From positions 1 through 64,000 of the forward strand of contig CAVPIW010000005.1 of the NCBI GenBank assembly GCA_963705105.1: a DNA stretch of 64,000 nt. The letters are read 5' to 3'. Below the pieces are notes generated by a model. It saw nothing but the letters and a program-made list of their open reading frames with translations, searched no databases and had not been told where the DNA came from. The DNA is from an uncultured Nitrospiraceae bacterium (GTDB lineage: Bacteria > Nitrospirota > Thermodesulfovibrionia > Thermodesulfovibrionales > Dissulfurispiraceae). Every line of letters starts with the position of its first letter. Positions within the stretch are counted from its first letter, which is position 1. The position numbers were made by a program, and so were the translations under genes. Below, in pieces: positions 5,467 through 61,049 of the stretch.

Positions 5467-6135
5467 ATGTTCCTGAAGATCGGGCATCGAGGTGCCGGGG
5501 CATACGAGACGGAAAATACGATCGGGAGTTTCCGGAAGGCGATCGAACTGGGAGTCAACGCAATCGAGTTCGATGTGAGGCTGTCGGGGGACGGCATGCC
5601 CGTCGTCATCCATGACGATAGTCTGAAAAGGGTCTTCGGTGCCGACCTGCGGGTCCGTGATGCGACTCTCAGAGAACTGAAACACGCGAGCGGGCAGCGC
5701 ATTCCCACCCTCAGCGAAGCCCTTCAATACATCGGCGGAAAGACGGAGAAGATCCTTGTGGAACTCAAAGAGAGCGGGTACGAAGAAATAATCCTCGACA
5801 CCATTCTCAGAGAAGGGCTCGCCGGCGGGGTCATCCTCATCTCCTTTCTCGAAGAGGCACTCGAACGTCTCCGGGCTCTCAATGGGGACATCGAGACGGG
5901 CCTCATCTACAAGAGGCACCGGAATCCCGTCGCAGCAGCAGGGGCTTTGAAGGCTCACTACCTCCTTCCCTTCCACCGTCTCGTCCGCTCGGTGGATGTC
6001 GACAAGGCACATGGGAGTCATCTGAAGGTGATCGCCTGGACGATCAACTCCGAGCGGGAGGCATATGCCTGCGCAGCCAAGGGTGTCGACGGCATAGCCA
6101 GCGACAAGCCCGACATCTTCAACGGTCTCTCGTAG
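5467..6135 (+). CDS. Glycerophosphodiester phosphodiesterase family
   Basis: IGHRGA, ENT, IEFDV, VIHD, AWTIN motifs. Confidence 0.93.
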   Translation: MFLKIGHRGAGAYETENTIGSFRKAIELGVNAIEFDVRLSGDGMPVVIHDDSLKRVFGADLRVRDATLRELKHASGQRIPTLSEALQYIGGKTEKILVELKESGYEEIILDTILREGLAGGVILISFLEEALERLRALNGDIETGLIYKRHRNPVAAAGALKAHYLLPFHRLVRSVDVDKAHGSHLKVIAWTINSEREAYACAAKGVDGIASDKPDIFNGLS

Positions 6136-6168
6136 AGAACAAACGCATGAGTCGCCCTGTTCAGCACA

Positions 6169-6378
6169 TAACCTTATCGTTGCAATACACGCCCGGGAAA
6201 TGCGGGGCGTATGCGCCGAAAACCTTGCTGCGGCGACACCTGTATCAAAACGAAGGACAGCTTATACGCCTATGATCGATGACACAAAGAATGGATTCCA
6301 GAAACACAAACCTGACGAGGAGTATCGTCGCCTTCAGCAAGGCTTTGAGGCGTTTCGCCCCGCAATTTCTATGCAACT
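6169..6378 (+). repeat. Intergenic hairpin repeat subtype A, 3' tail interrupted by IS110
   Basis: Subtype A arms; tail TGCAACT|ACAAGG resumes at 7818. Confidence 0.9.
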
Positions 6379-6444
6379 CCTACTATGCATTTGTGGTATA
6401 AGAAAATATGAGAACAAAGATTTACCACAAGTCGGTACCAAAAG

Positions 6445-6575
6445 ATAGGCAGGAGAACTTTCTTGCAACTGGGTCATCGAACCCTTCTTGTAGTGTGTTC
6501 CCTGCCTCTCATAACCCTGATCGGTTGATTGGGCATAAAGCCCTTGTCACGATGGAGTACGGGTTGAGAGGCAGT
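6445..6575 (+). ncRNA. Predicted bridge RNA (target- and donor-binding loops)
   Basis: Two stem/internal-loop/hairpin modules whose loops match the target and donor junctions; exact RNA ends unknown. Confidence 0.75.
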
Positions 6576-6617
6576 TCCTGCTTCGTCTCTACGGTGCTGC
6601 ACTAAGGAGGTGCTGCT

Positions 6618-7808
6618 ATGTTCACCCTGTATGTTGGCGTCGACGTCAGCAAAGACACATTTTCGTGCACGGGATTGCACAACAAGGCAGAAAAGCGATT
6701 CTGCCTGACTGCATCTATGAACCGTACCGGATTTGCTGATCTGTTGGAAACGATCAGGAATCACTGCTCTGAGACATCCTCGGTCTTGGTCGGCATGGAG
6801 TCCACAGGGTGTTACCATGTCAATTTGTATTCTTTTCTTGCGGCTCATGATATAAAAACCGTTGTGATCAACCCTCTGTTGATCAACAACTTCGCAAAGC
6901 TGTCGCTGAGGAAAACGAAAACAGACAAGAAGGATTCCCTTCTGATCGCCCAATTTCTTGTGCTCAATACCACTGCGATCTCTGCCGTGTCTGTGTCCGA
7001 GGATCATAGAGACCTCAGGGAGTTGGCACGGGAACGAGAATCCATCAGCCATCTCATCGCAAAAACGAAGACAGAGATTCGCCAGGCCCTGCACAGGACA
7101 TTTCCCGAATTGCCATCACTCTGCAATGTGTTTTCCCGGGGGATGCTTGAATTCCTCAAGGCGTTTCCGTCTGCCAGGATGATCCGACTTGCAAAACCCA
7201 AGGCTATCAGCAAAGCTCTTCGACCTGCAGATAAGAGGAAAACTCCTCCTGTCTCTGCCGAGCAGATCATGGAGGCGGCGAGGAGCTCCGTTGCATCCAT
7301 CTCTCTGGCGAAAGAATTGATTGTCCCCGGGAAGATTGCAACACTCCTGCATCTGCAGCAACGACTCACCGAGATGACAGAACTGCTTGAAAACATCTGC
7401 AAGGCGACTATGGTGCAGGACCTTGAGGTACTGACATCGATCAAAGGAATCAGCACCAAAACGGCGATTCCCTTTCTCGCTGAACTATCAGCAATCGAGC
7501 GCTTCGACTCGTACAAAAAACTGATCGCATATGCCGGGCTGGATCCTGCGATATACAATTCAGGAAAACGACAAGCGTCCGGTAAAATCTCAAAGCGCGG
7601 CAACAGTCACCTCAGACGTGTCATTTGGTTGATGACTTTTTGTACGGTACGCCAAAATCCGGTCATGAAGGATTACTTTCTGAAAAGGATCAGAGAGGGC
7701 CTTCCCTTTAAAAAAGCAATGATGGCAACCTCGCATAAGCTTCTTCGCCTCATCTATGCGATGTTGACCCGCAAAACCTATTATGTCCCTCAAATCTCAA
7801 ATGCATAA
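6618..7808 (+). CDS. IS110 family recombinase/transposase
   Basis: VGVDVSK, MESTG, KTDKKD (DEDD RuvC); AYAGLDP...NSG...ISKRG catalytic Ser region. Confidence 0.96.
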   Translation: MFTLYVGVDVSKDTFSCTGLHNKAEKRFCLTASMNRTGFADLLETIRNHCSETSSVLVGMESTGCYHVNLYSFLAAHDIKTVVINPLLINNFAKLSLRKTKTDKKDSLLIAQFLVLNTTAISAVSVSEDHRDLRELARERESISHLIAKTKTEIRQALHRTFPELPSLCNVFSRGMLEFLKAFPSARMIRLAKPKAISKALRPADKRKTPPVSAEQIMEAARSSVASISLAKELIVPGKIATLLHLQQRLTEMTELLENICKATMVQDLEVLTSIKGISTKTAIPFLAELSAIERFDSYKKLIAYAGLDPAIYNSGKRQASGKISKRGNSHLRRVIWLMTFCTVRQNPVMKDYFLKRIREGLPFKKAMMATSHKLLRLIYAMLTRKTYYVPQISNA

Positions 7809-7825
7809 TAGTTGACTACAAGGAT

Positions 7826-8035
7826 AACCCTTGTCGCTGCAGGAGACTCTTCCGAAAGGCGGGGCGAAGATGCCGAAAAGCCTTGGTGCTGCGAAACCTT
7901 TGCCTTCCCATGCGGATTATTTCAGGCCGCTGGTTGATGACGCAGAGAGCGGAATCCCCAATATCCAATTTCAAATGATCATGCTCGCTATCAGCAAGGC
8001 TTTGAGGCACTTTGTCCCGCCTTTTCACACAAGGG
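7826..8035 (+). repeat. Intergenic hairpin repeat subtype B
   Basis: Similar to 4258-4472 across arms and loop. Confidence 0.9.
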
Positions 8036-8060
8036 CAACACCACAACTGAGGAGGAACCC

Positions 8061-8264
8061 ATGCCTTACGTAAACATCAAGATCACCAAAGAGGGAGCTA
8101 CGGCCCAGCAGAAAGCGAAGCTTATCAAAGGCGTCACGCAACTGCTTTCGGACATCCTGGGCAAGAATCCCCAGACCACGGTTGTCGTCATCGACGAAGT
8201 GGAAACGGACAATTGGGGGATAGGAGGGGAGTCCGTCACAGTGCGGAGACAGCGCGGTCTCTAG
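8061..8264 (+). CDS. 4-oxalocrotonate tautomerase family
   Basis: N-terminal Pro (MPYVNIK), NWGIGG; GAGGAGG RBS. Confidence 0.92.
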   Translation: MPYVNIKITKEGATAQQKAKLIKGVTQLLSDILGKNPQTTVVVIDEVETDNWGIGGESVTVRRQRGL

Positions 8265-8285
8265 CGAAGCCGAAGAGGTGAGTCC

Positions 8286-9503
8286 GTGGAAACCGTCATC
8301 CTCTGCATCGACATGGACGCCTATTTCGCCTCTGTGGAGCAGCAGGCGAACCCGAAGCTGCGGGGAAAGCCCATCGCCGTCATCGGGTCGGGAGGCAGGA
8401 CCGTCGTCACCACCCGCTCCTACGAGGCGAGGAAGTTCGGCGTCAAGACGGGCATGACGGTCTACGAGGCAAAAAAGCTCTGTCCGCAGATCATCTTCGT
8501 CATCGGCGACAACGGGAAGTACACATACACGTGCACTGAGCTGTCAAAGCTGTACCGGCGATACACACCCGATGTCGAGATATACTCCATCGATGAGGCA
8601 TTCCTCGACATTACGACGACACATCATCTTTTCGGTGGTCCCGAAAAAATAGGACAGGCGATCAAGGATTGCATCAGACAAAGCTTCGGCATTTCCTGCA
8701 CCGTCGGCATCGCGCCGAACATCCTCCTGGCGAAGCTCGCCAGCGATATCGCCAAACCCGACGGTCTCCGGTGGATCAGGCCGGAGGACATCGAAAACGT
8801 AATGCGCGATCTCCCCGTCGATGAACTCTGGGGCATCGGCAAGGGAATCAGGGACCGGCTGAGATCTCTCGGCATCAAGACCTGCGGCGAACTGGGGGAT
8901 GCTCCGGCGGGCTTTCTCAGGAGCAAGTTCGGGATCGTCGGCGAGACCTTGAAGCTGATGGGTCTGGGCGTCTGCAACCGGCCCCTCGTCGTCCGGGAGG
9001 AGGACCCCAAGTCCATCGGCCACAGCCGGACCCTGCCCCATGACGTGATCAACGGGGACGACATCCGCAAACACCTGCTCCAACTGAGCGACATGGTGGG
9101 CAGGAGGGCGCGAAAGCACGGCTTCACGGGACAAACCGTCACTCTCACCGTCCGGTATGCCGACTTCCAGACCTTCACACGCAGGGGCGCCTTGCACCAA
9201 CCGACGAACACCACCCACGACATCTTCCAAAAGGTCATCGAAATTGTCGACGCCATCAGGCTCCGCGACCGGGTCCGTCTCCTCGGCATCAGCCTTTCCG
9301 GGTTCCTCCGTGACGACTGCCAGATGACCCTTCTCGCCGACAGGGAAAAAGAGCGTTCTCTCCTGCGCGCAGTAGACGCCGTCAATGACAGGTTCGGGGA
9401 CTTCAAGCTCACCTGGGCCTCTTACCTGCGGCAGATCGAAGAACGGGGCGTCATCTCCCCGGCCTGGCGCCCCTCAGGGGTAAGAAACGTGAAAATCAAG
9501 TAG
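8286..9503 (+). CDS. dinB: Y-family DNA polymerase (DinB/Pol IV-like)
   Basis: IDMDAYFASVE, SYEARKFGV, SIDEAFLD; C-terminal QMTLL clamp-like motif. Confidence 0.93.
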   Translation: METVILCIDMDAYFASVEQQANPKLRGKPIAVIGSGGRTVVTTRSYEARKFGVKTGMTVYEAKKLCPQIIFVIGDNGKYTYTCTELSKLYRRYTPDVEIYSIDEAFLDITTTHHLFGGPEKIGQAIKDCIRQSFGISCTVGIAPNILLAKLASDIAKPDGLRWIRPEDIENVMRDLPVDELWGIGKGIRDRLRSLGIKTCGELGDAPAGFLRSKFGIVGETLKLMGLGVCNRPLVVREEDPKSIGHSRTLPHDVINGDDIRKHLLQLSDMVGRRARKHGFTGQTVTLTVRYADFQTFTRRGALHQPTNTTHDIFQKVIEIVDAIRLRDRVRLLGISLSGFLRDDCQMTLLADREKERSLLRAVDAVNDRFGDFKLTWASYLRQIEERGVISPAWRPSGVRNVKIK

Positions 9504-53746: not shown

Positions 53747-53938
53747 AGTCTGTCCATAAAGTAAGCTTCAGCTGTCATTCCCGCAACCCCGCACTTGATG
53801 CGGGGGCGTCGGGAATCCTTCTGAAACAACGATTCCGGACAAGACATAATGTATTAACCCTGTCCACAAACTTAAGTGACGTGGGTTAAGCTTAAGTGAG
53901 GGCTGAAGCTCAGAGCCACAATTAAGGAGGGACAGGGT

Positions 53939-55075
53939 ATGAAGAATTATAGCAAGTATGTCGGGCTTGATGTCCATAAGGAACGGATCCAGGTAGCGAT
54001 TGCGACGGCAGGCAGAGGCGAGCCGATGTTCTACGGTGAGATCGACAACAGGCCTGAGGCGATCAGGAGATTGGTCAAGAAGATCGCGAATGGTGGGGAC
54101 GTGTTGTATTGTTATGAGGCGGGTCCGTGCGGCTATGGGACGTATCGTCAACTGAGGGAGCTTGGCTATGCCTGCGAGGTGGTTGCGCCCTCGCTTATAC
54201 CGAGGAAGGCGGGCGATCGAGTTAAGACGGACCGCCGGGACGCGGTGAGCTTGGCAGGATTGCTGAGGGCGGGGCAACTGACGGCAGCATGGGTGCCTGA
54301 TGCTGAGCAGGAGGCGATCCGCGACTTGACGCGGATTCGTTTGGACATGAAGGCAGTGGAACGGCACTTTCGGCAGCGGCTGGGGGCGTTTCTGCTCAGA
54401 CATGGAAAGCTCTATCCGGGCAAGAGCCCGTGGACGCAGGCTCATTTTCGGTGGCTGGAGGGCCTGAAGTTTGACAGCGCTGTGCAGCAGATTGTTTTTC
54501 AGGAATATGTCGACGCTGTGGTGCAGGCAGGGCAGCGAGTCAAGGCGATTGAAGAGGAAATGCGACGGGCTCTGGAGACGTGGTCGCTGGCGCCGGTGGT
54601 CACAGCGCTGATGGCATTGCGGGGGCTGAAGATCGTGGGAGCGATGACGGTGGTGGCGGAACTCGGCGATGTGACCCGTTTCAGCAATGCGTCTCAGCTG
54701 ATGGCGTATCTCGGTCTGGTGCCCAGCGAGCATTCCAGCGGGGCGAAGCGGAGTCGAGGCGGGATCACCAAGGCAGGCAACGGGCATGCGCGGCGAATCC
54801 TGATCGAGGCTGCGTGGTGCTACCGGTTTCCCGCACGCAAGACGGCGGTGCTGCAGCGGCGGGCGGAGAAGACCTCTCCGGGGGTGCAGTCGATTGCGTG
54901 GAAGGCTCAGAAGCGGTTGTGCATGCGCTATCAACATCTCCTGCTGCGGGGAAAGCGGCCAGTGGAAGCCTGCACGGCGGTTGCCCGTGAGCTCGCTGGC
55001 TTCATCTGGGCGATTGTCTGTGAGGTCATGTCTGGCGCACCCGGACGCAGTGTGCTCGTCGCCGCAGCGAGCTGA
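53939..55075 (+). CDS. IS110 family transposase
   Basis: VGLDVHK, YEAGPCG, VKTDRRDA, YLGLVPSEHSSG. Confidence 0.97.
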   Translation: MKNYSKYVGLDVHKERIQVAIATAGRGEPMFYGEIDNRPEAIRRLVKKIANGGDVLYCYEAGPCGYGTYRQLRELGYACEVVAPSLIPRKAGDRVKTDRRDAVSLAGLLRAGQLTAAWVPDAEQEAIRDLTRIRLDMKAVERHFRQRLGAFLLRHGKLYPGKSPWTQAHFRWLEGLKFDSAVQQIVFQEYVDAVVQAGQRVKAIEEEMRRALETWSLAPVVTALMALRGLKIVGAMTVVAELGDVTRFSNASQLMAYLGLVPSEHSSGAKRSRGGITKAGNGHARRILIEAAWCYRFPARKTAVLQRRAEKTSPGVQSIAWKAQKRLCMRYQHLLLRGKRPVEACTAVARELAGFIWAIVCEVMSGAPGRSVLVAAAS

Positions 55076-55139
55076 TGGCGGTGGTTCGCCAAGGAATGGC
55101 ATGATAAAACCAGCTATAACCATGGTCATGAGATGGAAC

Positions 55140-55302
55140 GGGCATGAGGTGTTGTCTTGGAGAATCCTCGCTTCCGGCATGAGGCTCCTAAAAGGATGAT
55201 CCTCGATACAAGACAGAGGCAACTCCGCGACGAAGACAAGTCATGCGGTAACCAACCCGCGCATATCAGCATGATCAACCGTCGCTGTGCACCTCATGCC
55301 CA
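55140..55302 (+). ncRNA. Predicted seek/bridge RNA of IS1111 copy 1
   Basis: GGGCATGAGGTG...CACCTCATGCCC closing stem around two guide-bearing loops. Confidence 0.72.
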
Positions 55303-55505
55303 CACAATGCCATTAAACACACGAGCCTCACCGAGGACTCTTGACAGGGTTAATACATATCAGCCGGAATGACAAATATACTGCACGTCATGAGTTTGTG
55401 GACAGACACTAAATAAGGAACCAGCGGCGTAACGACGGGGCACACAACAAGGCGCAGCATATCAGGAAGGGAAGCGGCTCAGTCATTACGAGCCGGCGAG
55501 ATACT

Positions 55506-59177: not shown

Positions 59178-59300
59178 GTCGTTATTATTGGCGCAGTCGT
59201 TTGTAAAGACTCAATCGATATGTGATTCTGTCATTCCGGCTGATATGTATTAACCCTGTCAAGAGTCCTCGGTGAGGCTCGTGTGTTTAATGGCATTGTG

Positions 59301-59463
59301 TGGGCATGAGGTGCACAGCGACGGTTGATCATGCTGATATGCGCGGGTTGGTTACCGCATGACTTGTCTTCGTCGCGGAGCTGCCTCTGTCTTGTATCGA
59401 GGATCATCCTTTTAGGAGCCTCATGCCGGAAGCGAGGATTCTCCAAGACAACACCTCATGCCC
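59301..59463 (-). ncRNA. Predicted seek/bridge RNA of IS1111 copy 2
   Basis: Reverse complement of 55140-55302. Confidence 0.7.
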
Positions 59464-59527
59464 GTTCCATCTCATGACCATGGTTATAGCTGGTTTTATC
59501 ATGCCATTCCTTGGCGAACCACCGCCA

Positions 59528-60664
59528 TCAACTCGCTGCGGCGACGAGCACACTGCGTCCGGGTGCGCCAGACATGACCTCACAGACAATCGCCCAGATG
59601 AAGCCAGCGAGCTCACGGGCAACCGCCGTGCAGGCTTCCACTGGCCGCTTTCCCCGCAGCAGGAGATGTTGATAGCGCATGCACAACCGCTTCTGAGCCT
59701 TCCACGCAATCGACTGCACCCCCGGAGAGGTCTTCTCCGCCCGCCGCTGCAGCACCGCCGTCTTGCGTGCGGGAAACCGGTAGCACCACGCAGCCTCGAT
59801 CAGGATTCGCCGCGCATGCCCGTTGCCTGCCTTGGTGATCCCGCCTCGACTCCGCTTCGCCCCGCTGGAATGCTCGCTGGGCACCAGACCGAGATACGCC
59901 ATCAGCTGAGACGCATTGCTGAAACGGGTCACATCGCCGAGTTCCGCCACCACCGTCATCGCTCCCACGATCTTCAGCCCCCGCAATGCCATCAGCGCTG
60001 TGACCACCGGCGCCAGCGACCACGTCTCCAGAGCCCGCCGCATTTCCTCTTCAATCGCCTTGACTCGCTGCCCTGCCTGCACCACAGCGTCGACATATTC
60101 CTGAAAAACAATCTGCTGCACAGCGCTGTCAAACTTCAGGCCCTCCAGCCACCGAAAATGAGCCTGCGTCCACGGGCTCTTGCCCGGATAGAGCTTTCCA
60201 TGTCTGAGCAGAAACGCCCCCAGCCGCTGCCGAAAGTGCCGTTCCGCTGCCTTCATGTCCAAACGAATCCGCGTCAAGTCGCGGATCGCCTCCTGCTCAG
60301 CATCAGGCACCCATGCTGCCGTCAGTTGCCCCGCCCTCAGCAATCCTGCCAAGCTCACCGCGTCCCGGCGGTCCGTCTTAACTCGATCGCCCGCTTTCCT
60401 CGGTATAAGCGAGGGCGCAACCACCTCGCAGGCATAGCCAAGCTCCCTCAGTTGACGATACGTCCCATAGCCGCACGGACCCGCCTCATAACAATACAAC
60501 ACGTCCCCACCATTCGCGATCTTCTTGACCAATCTCCTGATCGCCTCAGGCCTGTTGTCGATCTCACCGTAGAACATCGGCTCGCCTCTGCCTGCCGTCG
60601 CAATCGCTACCTGGATCCGTTCCTTATGGACATCAAGCCCGACATACTTGCTATAATTCTTCAT
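59528..60664 (-). CDS. IS110 family transposase
   Basis: Same as copy 1 except KAVER to KAAER. Confidence 0.97.
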   Translation of the reverse strand: MKNYSKYVGLDVHKERIQVAIATAGRGEPMFYGEIDNRPEAIRRLVKKIANGGDVLYCYEAGPCGYGTYRQLRELGYACEVVAPSLIPRKAGDRVKTDRRDAVSLAGLLRAGQLTAAWVPDAEQEAIRDLTRIRLDMKAAERHFRQRLGAFLLRHGKLYPGKSPWTQAHFRWLEGLKFDSAVQQIVFQEYVDAVVQAGQRVKAIEEEMRRALETWSLAPVVTALMALRGLKIVGAMTVVAELGDVTRFSNASQLMAYLGLVPSEHSSGAKRSRGGITKAGNGHARRILIEAAWCYRFPARKTAVLQRRAEKTSPGVQSIAWKAQKRLCMRYQHLLLRGKRPVEACTAVARELAGFIWAIVCEVMSGAPGRSVLVAAAS

Positions 60665-60777
60665 ACCCTGTCCCTCCTTAATTGTGGCTCTGAGCTTCAG
60701 CCCTCACTTAAGCTTAACCCACGTCACTTAAGTTTGTGGACAGGGTTAATACATTATGTCTTGTCCGGAATCTTTCT

Positions 60778-61049
60778 TAACCTTAATGTTGCATACGCCG
60801 GACCGGAAAGGCGGGGCGTATGCGCCGAAAACCTTGCTGCGGCGACACCTATATCAAAACGCATGCTGAACTATACTTTCATAGTCGATAACACAAAGAG
60901 TGGAATCCTGAAACACGAACCTGACGAGGCGTATCGTCGCCTTCAGCAAGGCTTTGAGGCGTTTCGCCCCGCCTTTCTATGTAACGACAAAGTTAAGGTT
61001 CAAAAGGATTCCCGACGCCCCCGCTCAGTGGCGGGGTTGCGGGAATGAC
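60778..61049 (+). repeat. Subtype A repeat inside a REP doublet; second REP at 61007-61049
   Basis: A arms; GATTCCCGAC...GCGGGAATGAC. Confidence 0.9.

What the first reader, a model, noticed from the sequence alone, without database searches (positions are those of the whole stretch)
6366..7823. IS110 with a fully readable bridge RNA aimed at the host hairpin repeat
Seen: removing 6379-7817 restores TGCAA-CT-ACAAGG, matching the repeat-family tail. In the left end, loop 1 has TGCAACT (6464-6470, equal to left target plus core) and CTTGTAGT (6487-6494, reverse complement of ACTACAAG) around a GGGT/ACCC hairpin. Loop 2 has GTTGATT (6524-6530, vs right end GTTGACT) and GGAGT (6554-6558, reverse complement of ACTCC) around a GGGC/GCCC hairpin. 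Known: this is the IS621 bridge-RNA layout with a CT core. Inference: a programmable recombinase ortholog whose natural target is the repeat family.
Basis: partly seen in the sequence, partly recalled or inferred. Interest (0 to 1): 0.8.

Follow-up and report, generated by a model that had tools for sequence, protein, structure and literature searches.

The report
IS110 element with readable bridge RNA
This is an intact insertion sequence of the known IS110 "bridge RNA" type whose guide RNA matches the spot where it sits, the end of a short repeat scattered hundreds of times through the host genome; it is a clear but ordinary new member of a known system.

Summary
Window 6379-7817 is a 1,439-bp IS110-group element between two CT cores. 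Removing it restores TGCAA-CT-ACAAG, the tail of a ~215-bp MITE-like host repeat (147 near-full copies).

The 396-aa ORF scores above the NCBIfam cut-off for "IS110 family RNA-guided transposase" and keeps the DEDD and Ser catalytic residues.

The 239-nt left end folds into two stem-loops with large internal loops. Across 63 relatives, 14 of 27 base pairs show compensatory changes.
- Loop 1 carries TGCAACU and CUUGUAG, equal or complementary to the element's own flanks.
- Loop 2 carries GUUGAUU and GGAG, matching the RE-LE junction.

Across relatives at 41-57% protein identity, loop-1 guides track each element's own flanks (0 of 10,000 permutations, each side), while loop 2 and the element ends stay constant. 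Excision would build a TTGACT-18 nt-TGnTATAAG promoter.

Not shown: the RNA itself, any activity, or a second copy. The element is single-copy here and no near-identical copy was found elsewhere. Only 3 vacant perfect targets exist, so it aims at a minority variant of the repeat tail.

This is a new member of a known kind, of modest interest.

The parts
6379..7817 (+). IS110-group insertion sequence, 1,439 bp counting one CT core copy (7816-7817)
   Evidence: Repeat-tail consensus is continuous across the excised junction. The ends CT|CCTACTA... and ...ATAGTTGA|CT are conserved in relatives. Single copy in the own genome.
6377..6378 (+). Left copy of the CT core dinucleotide (target side)
   Evidence: Direct reading. 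CT precedes CCTAC in most relatives.
6372..6376 (+). Left target half TGCAA (last bases of the host repeat tail before the core)
   Evidence: Identical to the guide at 6464-6468.
7818..7822 (+). Right target half ACAAG
   Evidence: Reverse complement of the guide CUUGU at 6487-6491. Continues the repeat tail consensus.
6170..6378 (+). Host ~215-bp MITE-like interspersed repeat copy whose last ~7 bp lie beyond the IS at 7818-7824
   Evidence: 516 hits, 147 of at least 180 nt; long imperfect terminal inverted repeats.
6379..6617 (+). Left non-coding end (239 nt) encoding the bridge RNA. The right non-coding end is only 9 nt (7809-7817).
6397..6402 (+). -10 box TATAAG, preceded by TGG (extended -10)
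   Evidence: A -10-like box at offset 17-18 from the LE start in 36 of 56 distinct relatives' left ends; a TG 1 nt upstream of the box in 36 of 56, counted over all box offsets.
7812..7817 (+). -35 box TTGACT at the right end. It comes to lie 18 nt upstream of the -10 only in the excised circle.
   Evidence: TAGTTGAC[TA] in 43 of 47 relatives with the right end in view. The scan of the integrated copy finds no promoter in the left end.
6447..6583 (+). Structured core of the bridge RNA: closing stem 6447-6453/6577-6583 enclosing the target-binding and donor-binding stem-loops
   Evidence: RNAalifold consensus of 63 sequences; 98.2% of cells paired; 14 of 27 pairs with compensatory changes.
6455..6500 (+). 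Target-binding stem-loop: basal stem 6455-6458/6497-6500, internal loop, distal hairpin 6471-6474/6481-6484
   Evidence: Pair 87:135 in the alignment is AU in 34 and GC in 24 sequences.
6464..6470 (+). Left target guide UGCAA + core-binding CU (same sense as the top strand, so it pairs with the bottom strand)
   Evidence: 7 of 7 identical to 6372-6378. LTG-flank association across relatives, 0 of 10,000 permutations.
6487..6493 (+). Right target guide CUUGU + core-binding AG (reverse complement of CT-ACAAG)
   Evidence: 7 of 7 complementary to 7816-7822. RTG-flank association across relatives, 0 of 10,000 permutations.
6494..6494 (+). Probable handshake-guide U, pairing with the A that precedes the core in the donor (7815); here the target has an A there too (6376)
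   Evidence: Nearly invariant column (T92) while the left-flank base varies. Role inferred from IS621 (PMC11208158 passages).
6507..6569 (+). Donor-binding stem-loop: basal stems 6507-6510/6566-6569 and 6514-6516/6562-6564, internal loop, distal hairpin 6531-6534/6540-6543
   Evidence: Distal stem pairs show 13 and 21 compensatory changes.
6524..6530 (+). Left donor guide GUUGAUU against the right end GTTGA-CT. The one difference gives a U-G wobble with the bottom strand.
   Evidence: GTTGATT or GTTGGTT is conserved in relatives whose right end is TAGTTGACT.
6554..6557 (+). Right donor guide, conserved part GGAG = reverse complement of CT-CC (core plus the first two bases of the left end)
   Evidence: In L024, L029 and L043 the core is CA at both ends and this motif reads GGUG.
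6618..7808 (+). Recombinase gene, 396 aa, with an AGGAGG Shine-Dalgarno at 6605-6610
   Evidence: PF01548 3.9e-35 and PF02371 5.1e-24. NF033542 at 219.7 bits, cut-off 140. PDB ISCro4 4.3e-14 and IS621 2.9e-13. D9, E61, D103, D106, S315.

Best explanation
Window 6379-7817 is an intact IS110-group insertion sequence that works like IS621.

Proposed mechanism. Its left end encodes a ~140-190-nt bridge RNA with two internal loops. Loop 1, the target-binding loop, reads TGCAA-CT on the bottom strand and CT-ACAAG on the top strand of the target. Loop 2, the donor-binding loop, reads the element's own joined ends, GTTGA-CT-CC. The DEDD/Ser recombinase, guided by this RNA, exchanges strands at the CT core and places the circular element into the 12-bp site TGCAACTACAAG. 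In this genome that site is the outer end of a ~215-bp MITE-like repeat. Excision joins TTGACT (right end) to TGnTATAAG (left end) 18 nt apart and so builds the promoter for the RNA and the recombinase.

Shown here: family membership of the protein, the element ends, the RNA fold with covariation, the guide-flank matches, and their co-variation in relatives.

Inferred from IS621: transcription, RNA-protein binding, the chemistry, and programmability.
For: Protein. It matches PF01548 and PF02371, NCBIfam 'IS110 family RNA-guided transposase' at 219.7 bits against a cut-off of 140, and the solved ISCro4 and IS621 recombinases. The motifs GVDVSK, MESTG, KTDKKD and NSGK give D9, E61, D103, D106 and S315.

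Anatomy. The left end is 239 nt and the right end 9 nt. CT stands at both junctions and there are no terminal inverted repeats.

RNA. The MFE z-score is -4.0. The consensus fold of 63 sequences has 27 pairs, 98.2% of cells paired against 29-68% when partners are slid. 14 pairs have both-side changes against 7.0 +/- 1.3 in shuffles, 0 of 500 reaching the observed value. Loop 1 is variable and loop 2 conserved, as Durrant et al. report for IS110 (PMC11208160 passages).

Guides. The own flanks match 7 of 7 on each side.
- LTG against own left flank, 45 unique pairs: mean 4.89 of 7 against 3.17 +/- 0.20 permuted, 0 of 10,000.
- RTG against own right flank, 39 unique pairs: 4.15 against 2.61 +/- 0.19, 0 of 10,000.
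- At least five RTG/right-flank classes appear: CCTTT, GTACT/GTAGT, ACAAG/ACAAA, TATTA, GAAAA.
- Copies within one MAG (L049-L060) carry different guides that fit their own flanks.
- The CT-to-CA core variants L024, L029 and L043 change RDG from GGAG to GGUG and the right end from GACT to GACA.

Target. The genome holds 3 vacant exact 12-mers (about 0.5 expected), all behind the CGCCCCGC...TTT tail. Of 349 regex-defined tails, 27 lie within 1 mismatch, against 0 of 1,745 random segments.

Promoter. Geometry is and conservation. The bridge-RNA stretch is the best-conserved DNA of the element in relatives (query 66-203, 72-81% identity).
Against: No RNA evidence. Contigs of four RNA-library runs did not cover 6364-6477, and contigs cannot show transcripts in any case.

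Rfam 15 gave no match at E <= 1.

The element is single-copy in this genome. No near-identical copy turned up in 60 relatives or in two metagenome pattern scans. Its own target choice therefore rests on one insertion.

The RDG match is short: 4 contiguous nt, and the rest does not pair simply with CCTAC.

U6494 can pair with the target's own A6376. In IS621, cognate pairing of handshake positions blocks strand exchange, so efficiency at this site could be low.

The most common tail variant, TGCAACAGAAAG (23 copies), lacks the CT core.

The permutation tests ignore relatedness among loci.
Confidence: 0.9

Rival explanations
1. The element is of the bridge-RNA type but is now a dormant or crippled single copy. 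The guide-flank match only records one past insertion, and nothing moves today.
For: There is one copy although 3 perfect vacant sites and 26 one-mismatch tails exist. The integrated copy lacks the -35 box: GCAACT stands at that place and the scan finds no promoter there. The handshake U can pair with its own target (inference).
Against: The ORF is full length: 396 aa against 394-398 aa for intact relatives. All five catalytic residues are present. All helices and guides are intact, 12 of 12 to the flanks. Dependence on the junction promoter is the normal state for IS110.
Confidence: 0.25
2. The structured left end is only a translational or transcriptional leader of the transposase gene, and the matches to the flanks are coincidence. 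Target choice would then be made by the protein recognising the repeat.
For: The left end lies directly upstream of the ORF with a strong Shine-Dalgarno. There is no Rfam hit and no RNA data.
Against: Guide-flank co-variation in relatives reaches 0 of 10,000 permutations on each side. Core CT-to-CA changes are mirrored in the RNA. Both 7-mers arise by chance in 47 of 200,000 shuffles. The layout is the same as the experimentally proven IS621 RNA.
Confidence: 0.03
3. Insertion in the repeat is incidental: the repeat is simply abundant, and the element has no special relation to the family.
For: Only 1 of 349 regex-defined tails is a perfect vacant site, and the consensus tail differs from the guide at 1-3 positions. 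Relatives insert in many different, apparently non-repeat contexts.
Against: All 3 vacant perfect sites in 4.23 Mb lie in repeat tails. 27 of 349 tails lie within 1 mismatch against 0 of 1,745 random segments. The insertion point is exactly at the CT of the tail.
Confidence: 0.1

Closest known systems
IS621 (E. coli) bridge recombinase and bridge RNA (Durrant et al. 2024, PMC11208160; Hiraizumi et al. 2024, PMC11208158; passages read)
   Same: DEDD RuvC-like domain plus Tnp domain with a catalytic Ser. The RNA lies in the long left end. There are two stem-loops with internal loops: LTG in the same sense as left target plus core, RTG as the reverse complement of core plus right target, and LDG/RDG against the RE-LE junction. 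The core is CT. A promoter is rebuilt on excision. Loop 1 is variable and loop 2 conserved. There is a handshake position 3' of the RTG. The natural targets lie in a host repeat.
   Different: The protein is only distantly similar (phmmer E 2.9e-13, aligned mainly over the Tnp domain) and longer, 396 aa against a 328-aa chain. The perfect target match is 5+2+5 = 12 bp, against IS621's 7+2+2 (11 bp). The LDG carries a conserved U-G wobble at the first core position. The contiguous RDG match is only 4 nt. The target is the outer end of a ~215-bp MITE-like repeat rather than a REP. Nothing is tested experimentally here.
ISPpu10 (Pseudomonas putida), an IS110 element that inserts into copies of one intergenic repeat with a GC-rich stem-loop 5' of the target (bioRxiv 10.64898/2026.03.19.712850; abstract read)
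   Same: An IS110-group element whose insertions fall in a multi-copy intergenic sequence. Here too a small GC-rich hairpin (GGCG-TTT-CGCC) lies about 15-25 nt 5' of the core, and the 50-nt left flank has z = -2.75.
   Different: Upstream structure is not a feature of this clade: mean z is -0.35, and 9 of 66 flanks have z < -2. Whether the hairpin matters here is untested.
ISCro4 transposase (PDB 9t56)
   Same: Best solved-structure match (E 4.3e-14). The alignment covers both the DEDD and the Tnp parts and shows the catalytic motifs conserved.
   Different: It is 341 aa against 396 aa, with low identity. Its RNA and target were not compared here.
IS1111-group elements (bridge or seek RNA in the right end, subterminal inverted repeats)
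   Same: Same recombinase superfamily. A likely member sits twice in this window (53825-55377 and 59225-60778).
   Different: The element studied has its long non-coding end and RNA on the left and no long subterminal inverted repeats, so it belongs to the IS110 group.

Membership tests
IS110 family, IS110 group (bridge recombinase systems) | N-terminal DEDD RuvC-like domain | tested here: met
   PF01548 3.9e-35, residues 6-163. D9, E61, D103 and D106 sit in motifs aligned to ISCro4.
IS110 family, IS110 group (bridge recombinase systems) | C-terminal Tnp domain with a catalytic serine | tested here: met
   PF02371 5.1e-24, residues 270-354. The S315-G316 motif aligns to the YESG motif of ISCro4. 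The role of S241-G242 in IS621 is taken from PMC11208158.
IS110 family, IS110 group (bridge recombinase systems) | Curated family model passed | tested here: met
   NF033542 'IS110 family RNA-guided transposase', 219.7 bits against a cut-off of 140.
IS110 family, IS110 group (bridge recombinase systems) | Left non-coding end much longer than the right; no long terminal or subterminal inverted repeats | tested here: met
   The left end is 239 nt and the right end 9 nt. The criterion is from PMC11208160.
IS110 family, IS110 group (bridge recombinase systems) | Core dinucleotide present at both junctions and in the empty site | tested here: met
   CT at 6377-6378 and 7816-7817. Uninterrupted repeat tails read TGCAACT-ACAAGG with one CT.
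IS110 family, IS110 group (bridge recombinase systems) | ncRNA with two stem-loops bearing large internal loops, conserved as a structure | tested here: met
   RNAalifold and pair counts on 63 sequences: 98.2% of cells paired and 14 of 27 pairs compensatory. There is no Rfam model hit.
IS110 family, IS110 group (bridge recombinase systems) | Loop 1 (LTG/RTG) complementary to the two strands of the target and co-varying with it | tested here: met
   7 of 7 on each side for this element. Permutation tests give 0 of 10,000 on each side.
IS110 family, IS110 group (bridge recombinase systems) | Loop 2 (LDG/RDG) complementary to the joined ends of the element | tested here: met
   LDG GUUGAUU pairs with all 7 bottom-strand bases of GTTGACT, one of them a U-G wobble. 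RDG GGAG pairs with CTCC. The CT-to-CA core variants change RDG to GGUG. The RDG beyond 4 nt is not explained.
IS110 family, IS110 group (bridge recombinase systems) | Promoter reconstituted at the RE-LE junction, and the RNA expressed | tested here: inconclusive
   The sequence geometry is present and conserved. Transcription is not shown: the RNA-library contigs are uninformative.
IS110 family, IS110 group (bridge recombinase systems) | RNA-guided, reprogrammable recombination | not testable with these tools
   Needs a recombination assay.

The most novel reading that the evidence does not exclude
This Nitrospirota/Thermodesulfobacteriota clade of long (about 395-aa) IS110 recombinases would be a naturally self-reprogramming lineage. 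Copies within one genome carry different loop-1 guides that fit their own sites. In this host the lineage would have settled on the outer 12 bp of a MITE-like repeat as a multi-copy safe landing pad. The GC-rich hairpin just upstream would then act as a second, structural gate, as proposed for ISPpu10. The handshake U, which pairs with both target and donor, would throttle insertion and explain why only 1 of 4 perfect sites is occupied.
Probability: 0.2. Interest if true: 0.45.

Novelty: new member of a known kind. Interest (0 to 1): 0.3.

Why it matters
It adds a divergent, fully readable bridge-recombinase and bridge-RNA pair from an uncultured-type lineage, with a 12-bp natural target and a clean set of relatives that show natural guide reprogramming. 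It could be a candidate ortholog for genome-engineering screens, and it is one more case of IS110 elements using host repeats as landing sites. It opens no new question. Bridge RNAs were predicted in 85.7% of IS110 elements by Durrant et al., and NCBI already names the protein family "RNA-guided transposase".

Tried and rejected
- Rfam 15 scan of 5800-8400 at E <= 1: no match.
- Other copies of this element: none in the own genome by DNA, protein or local tblastn. None near-identical in 60 relatives.
- Exact 31-nt loop-1 pattern in metagenome contigs: 0 hits. The degenerate loop-1 pattern gave 1 hit, L101, an unrelated AT-rich chance match with no BLAST similarity.
- Two repeat tails followed by CCTAC... 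(C6:569159, C10:41992) looked like further left ends. The C6 locus holds no IS. C10 was not examined further.
- RNA evidence: four RNA-library runs were laid (X1, X3, X4, X5). Contigs covered the flanking repeat and parts of the ORF at 90-99% likeness, with no cover on 6364-6477. This allows no conclusion on expression.
- ISPpu10-like upstream hairpin as a clade feature: the 50-nt left flanks of 66 distinct loci had a mean z of -0.35, with 9 below -2. It is not general. A few rows (L023, L079, L083) were mis-anchored inside the RNA by my regex and were left in.
- My first 'in repeat' regex flagged only 1 of 3 exact sites, because it required the TTGAGGC body. The printed contexts show all three behind the CGCCCCGC tail.
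- In some searches, 3 of 81 sources were skipped (too little upstream DNA) and 24 of the remaining 78 were not parsed by the regex. A few right ends (L044, L063, L071, broken ORFs) are probably mis-called. They were left in, which works against the result.
Full report
**1. Observation**

The stretch was read directly and every coordinate in the finding is right.
- TGCAACT is at 6464-6470 and CTTGTAGT at 6487-6494, on either side of the GGGT/ACCC hairpin (6471-6474 / 6481-6484).
- GTTGATT is at 6524-6530 and GGAGT at 6554-6558, on either side of GGGC/GCCC (6531-6534 / 6540-6543).
- CT stands at 6377-6378 and again at 7816-7817. Removing 6379-7817 leaves TATGCAA-CT-ACAAGGATAA.
- Both 7-mers (TGCAACT, CTTGTAG) turn up together in only 47 of 200,000 shuffles of the 239-nt left end.

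**2. The gene**

The only long ORF, 6618-7808 (396 aa), matches several family and structure resources.
- Pfam: PF01548 DEDD_Tnp_IS110 (3.9e-35) and PF02371 (5.1e-24).
- NCBIfam: NF033542 'IS110 family RNA-guided transposase' at 219.7 bits, cut-off 140.
- Solved structures: ISCro4 (E 4.3e-14) and IS621 (E 2.9e-13) recombinases.
- The ISCro4 alignment and a motif look-up place the catalytic residues at D9, E61, D103, D106 and S315. Their roles in IS621 (D11, E60, D102, D105, S241) are taken from passages of PMC11208158.
- Intact relatives are 394-398 aa, so the ORF is full length.

**3. The host repeat**

- The left flank gives 516 BLAST hits in the 4.23-Mb, 19-contig genome. 147 of them are at least 180 nt long.
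- The consensus is a ~215-bp unit with long imperfect terminal inverted repeats. It ends ...GGCTTTGAGGCGCTTCGCCCCGCCTTTccATGCAACtgcAaGGT.
- 204 tails were listed (output cut in view). The IS sits exactly after the CT of such a tail.
The inverted-repeat anatomy seen here agrees with that.

**4. How well the guide fits the family**

- The 12-mer TGCAACTACAAG occurs 3 more times in the genome, against about 0.5 expected. Each copy lies behind the CGCCCCGC...TTT tail.
- Among 349 tails defined by a regex, the best 12-mer lies at 0, 1, 2 and 3 mismatches in 1, 26, 52 and 86 tails respectively.
- Among 1,745 random segments, none lies within 1 mismatch and 2 lie at 2 mismatches.
- The commonest tail variants are TGCAACAGAAAG (23 copies, no CT core), TGCAACTGCAAG (12) and TGCAACTGGAAG (11).
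- The element is therefore aimed at the repeat tail, but at a minority variant of it.

**5. Relatives**

A scan of one genome per species found 275 stretches encoding relatives. The best 80 were kept, at 41-57% identity, mostly from Nitrospirota/Thermodesulfovibrionales and Syntrophales/'delta proteobacterium' MAGs.

Their upstream regions align well with this left end.
- The left end begins CT|CCTAC(T/C)A.
- The right end is ...ATAGTTGA|CT in 43 of 47 loci with that end in view.
- Loop 2 with its flanks is nearly constant (GTTGATTGGG...CCC...GATGGAGG), while loop 1 varies.

This is the pattern Durrant et al. describe for IS110 ncRNAs: a 5' stem-loop, then two stem-loops with internal loops, the first variable and the second conserved (PMC11208160 passages).

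**6. RNA structure**

- The window's left end folds at -85.1 kcal/mol, z = -4.0.
- RNAalifold on 63 distinct sequences gives four parts:
  - a closing stem (window 6447-6453 / 6577-6583);
  - a target-binding stem-loop (basal 6455-6458 / 6497-6500, distal 6471-6474 / 6481-6484);
  - a donor-binding stem-loop (basal 6507-6510 / 6566-6569 and 6514-6516 / 6562-6564);
  - its distal hairpin (6531-6534 / 6540-6543).
- 98.2% of 1,693 cells pair, against 29-68% when the 3' partners are slid by 1-3 columns.
- 14 of 27 pairs show changes on both sides, against 7.0 +/- 1.3 in shuffles, with 0 of 500 shuffles reaching any observed measure.
- Rfam 15 has no matching family at E <= 1.

**7. Guides against flanks**

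By the IS621 rules, the LTG has the sense of left target plus core, and the RTG is the reverse complement of core plus right target.
- Here LTG UGCAA-CU equals 6372-6378 (7 of 7). RTG CUUGU-AG is complementary to 7816-7822 (7 of 7).
- Guides and flanks were extracted from the window plus 80 loci. 3 sources were skipped, 24 were not parsed by the regex, and 54 were parsed. That gave 50 left pairs (45 unique) and 40 right pairs (39 unique).
- Own-flank matches over the 7 non-core positions average 4.89 (left) and 4.15 (right). After permuting flanks among loci they average 3.17 +/- 0.20 and 2.61 +/- 0.19, with 0 of 10,000 permutations reaching the observed value on either side.
- The loci are related, so these are not true probabilities, but the classes are distinct. 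RTG ..AAAGGAG goes with CT-CCTTT, ..AGTACAG with CT-GTACT, ..TTTGTAG with CT-ACAAA, ..TAATAAG with CT-TATTA, and ..TTTTCAG with CT-GAAAA.
- Within one MAG (L049-L060), copies carry different LTGs (AACTAC, TCCTAC, TTTCTAC, TGCTAC) that fit their own left flanks.

**8. Donor loop**

- LDG GUUGAUU against the right end GTTGA-CT pairs with all seven bottom-strand bases, if the U opposite G is counted as a wobble. Relatives have GUUGAUU or GUUGGUU against the same TAGTTGACT, again wobble-compatible.
- RDG: GGAG is complementary to CT-CC.
- In L024, L029 and L043 both ends carry CA instead of CT (…CA|CCTAC and TAGTTGA-CA). There the RDG motif reads GGUG and the RTG core part reads UG. This is direct co-variation of the core.
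- Beyond these four bases I could not derive a convincing pairing with CCTAC. IS621 pairs discontiguously there.

**9. Handshake position**

- U6494, just 3' of the RTG, is at least 90% conserved (T92).
- The base before the core in the targets is mostly C, whereas the donor always has A (TTGA|CT).
- In IS621 the two bases 3' of the RTG pair with donor positions 6-7 after strand exchange, and pairing with the cognate DNA locks the complex.
In this element the target also has A there (6376). By inference, this might damp insertion.

**10. Promoter**

- In the circle, TTGACT (7812-7817) would lie 18 nt upstream of TGG-TATAAG (6397-6402).
- In the integrated copy the -35 place holds GCAACT, and the consensus scan finds no promoter in the left end.
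- Of 56 distinct relatives' left ends, 36 have a -10-like box at offset 17-18 and 36 have a TG one base upstream of it.
- This fits 'excision reconstitutes a promoter'.

**11. What is not shown**

- Expression: four RNA-library runs held only contigs. These covered the flanking repeat and parts of the ORF, with nothing over 6364-6477, so nothing can be concluded.
- Copies: the element is single-copy in this genome.
  - In 60 relatives only partial matches were found, best over the RNA region (query 66-203) at 72-81% identity.
  - Two metagenome pattern scans gave nothing relevant.
- An ISPpu10-like upstream hairpin (abstract) exists here (flank z = -2.75), but it is not a clade feature (mean z -0.35).

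**12. Verdict**

This is an intact IS110-group element with an IS621-type bridge RNA whose loop 1 specifies TGCAA-CT-ACAAG, a variant of the tail of the host's MITE-like repeat. It is a new member of a known kind: NCBI already names the protein family 'RNA-guided transposase', and bridge RNAs were predicted in 85.7% of IS110 elements. Interest is modest (0.3). Its value lies in being a divergent, well-documented ortholog with natural guide diversification among its relatives.

Noticed in passing
window 53825-55377 (+) and 59225-60778 (-): Two 99.5%-identical copies of a second, ~1.55-kb IS110-family element. Its 391-aa ORF is 33-34% identical to the studied recombinase over the C-terminal ~106-109 aligned residues. 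It has subterminal inverted repeats (…CCGGACAAGACATAATGTATTAACCCTGTC / GACAGGGTTAATACATATCAGCCGGAATGACA), which is IS1111-like. The copies lie in inverted orientation and bracket about 3.8 kb, so this may be a composite unit. One copy also abuts a repeat tail (…TATGCAACATTAAGGTT|).
   Followed up: partly
whole genome; e.g. window 6170-6378 + 7818-7824, 7825-8045: A ~215-bp MITE-like interspersed repeat with long imperfect terminal inverted repeats: 147 near-full copies and 516 hits in 4.23 Mb, often in tandem or nested. The head in reverse reads TGCAAC-GA-TAAGG and has no CT core, so only the tail end is a fit for the IS guide. No transposase for the repeat was looked for.
   Followed up: partly
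L049, L050, L051, L054, L056, L058, L060 (one MAG, CAVSHF...): Seven copies of a related IS110 element in one genome carry different loop-1 guides, each fitting its own flanks. Their LTG ends in CA against a CT core, a conserved core mismatch. This looks like natural within-genome retargeting.
   Followed up: partly
L024, L029, L043: Relatives with a CA core instead of CT at both element ends, mirrored by GGUG instead of GGAG in the donor loop and UG instead of AG in the target loop.
   Followed up: partly
window 6250-6363 and 7846-7950 in runs X1, X3, X4, X5: Contigs from environmental RNA-type libraries cover the host repeat at much higher word depth than the IS, and run on into many different flanks. 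The repeat family, or close kin of it, is therefore widespread in those samples. Transcription is not shown.
   Followed up: no
window 7818-7840: At this site the tail of one repeat copy and the head of the next form an imperfect palindrome (ACAAGG-ATAAC-CCTTGT, extendable to about 12 bp) that includes the insertion point. This is special to the tandem arrangement here and is not seen at most tails.
   Followed up: no
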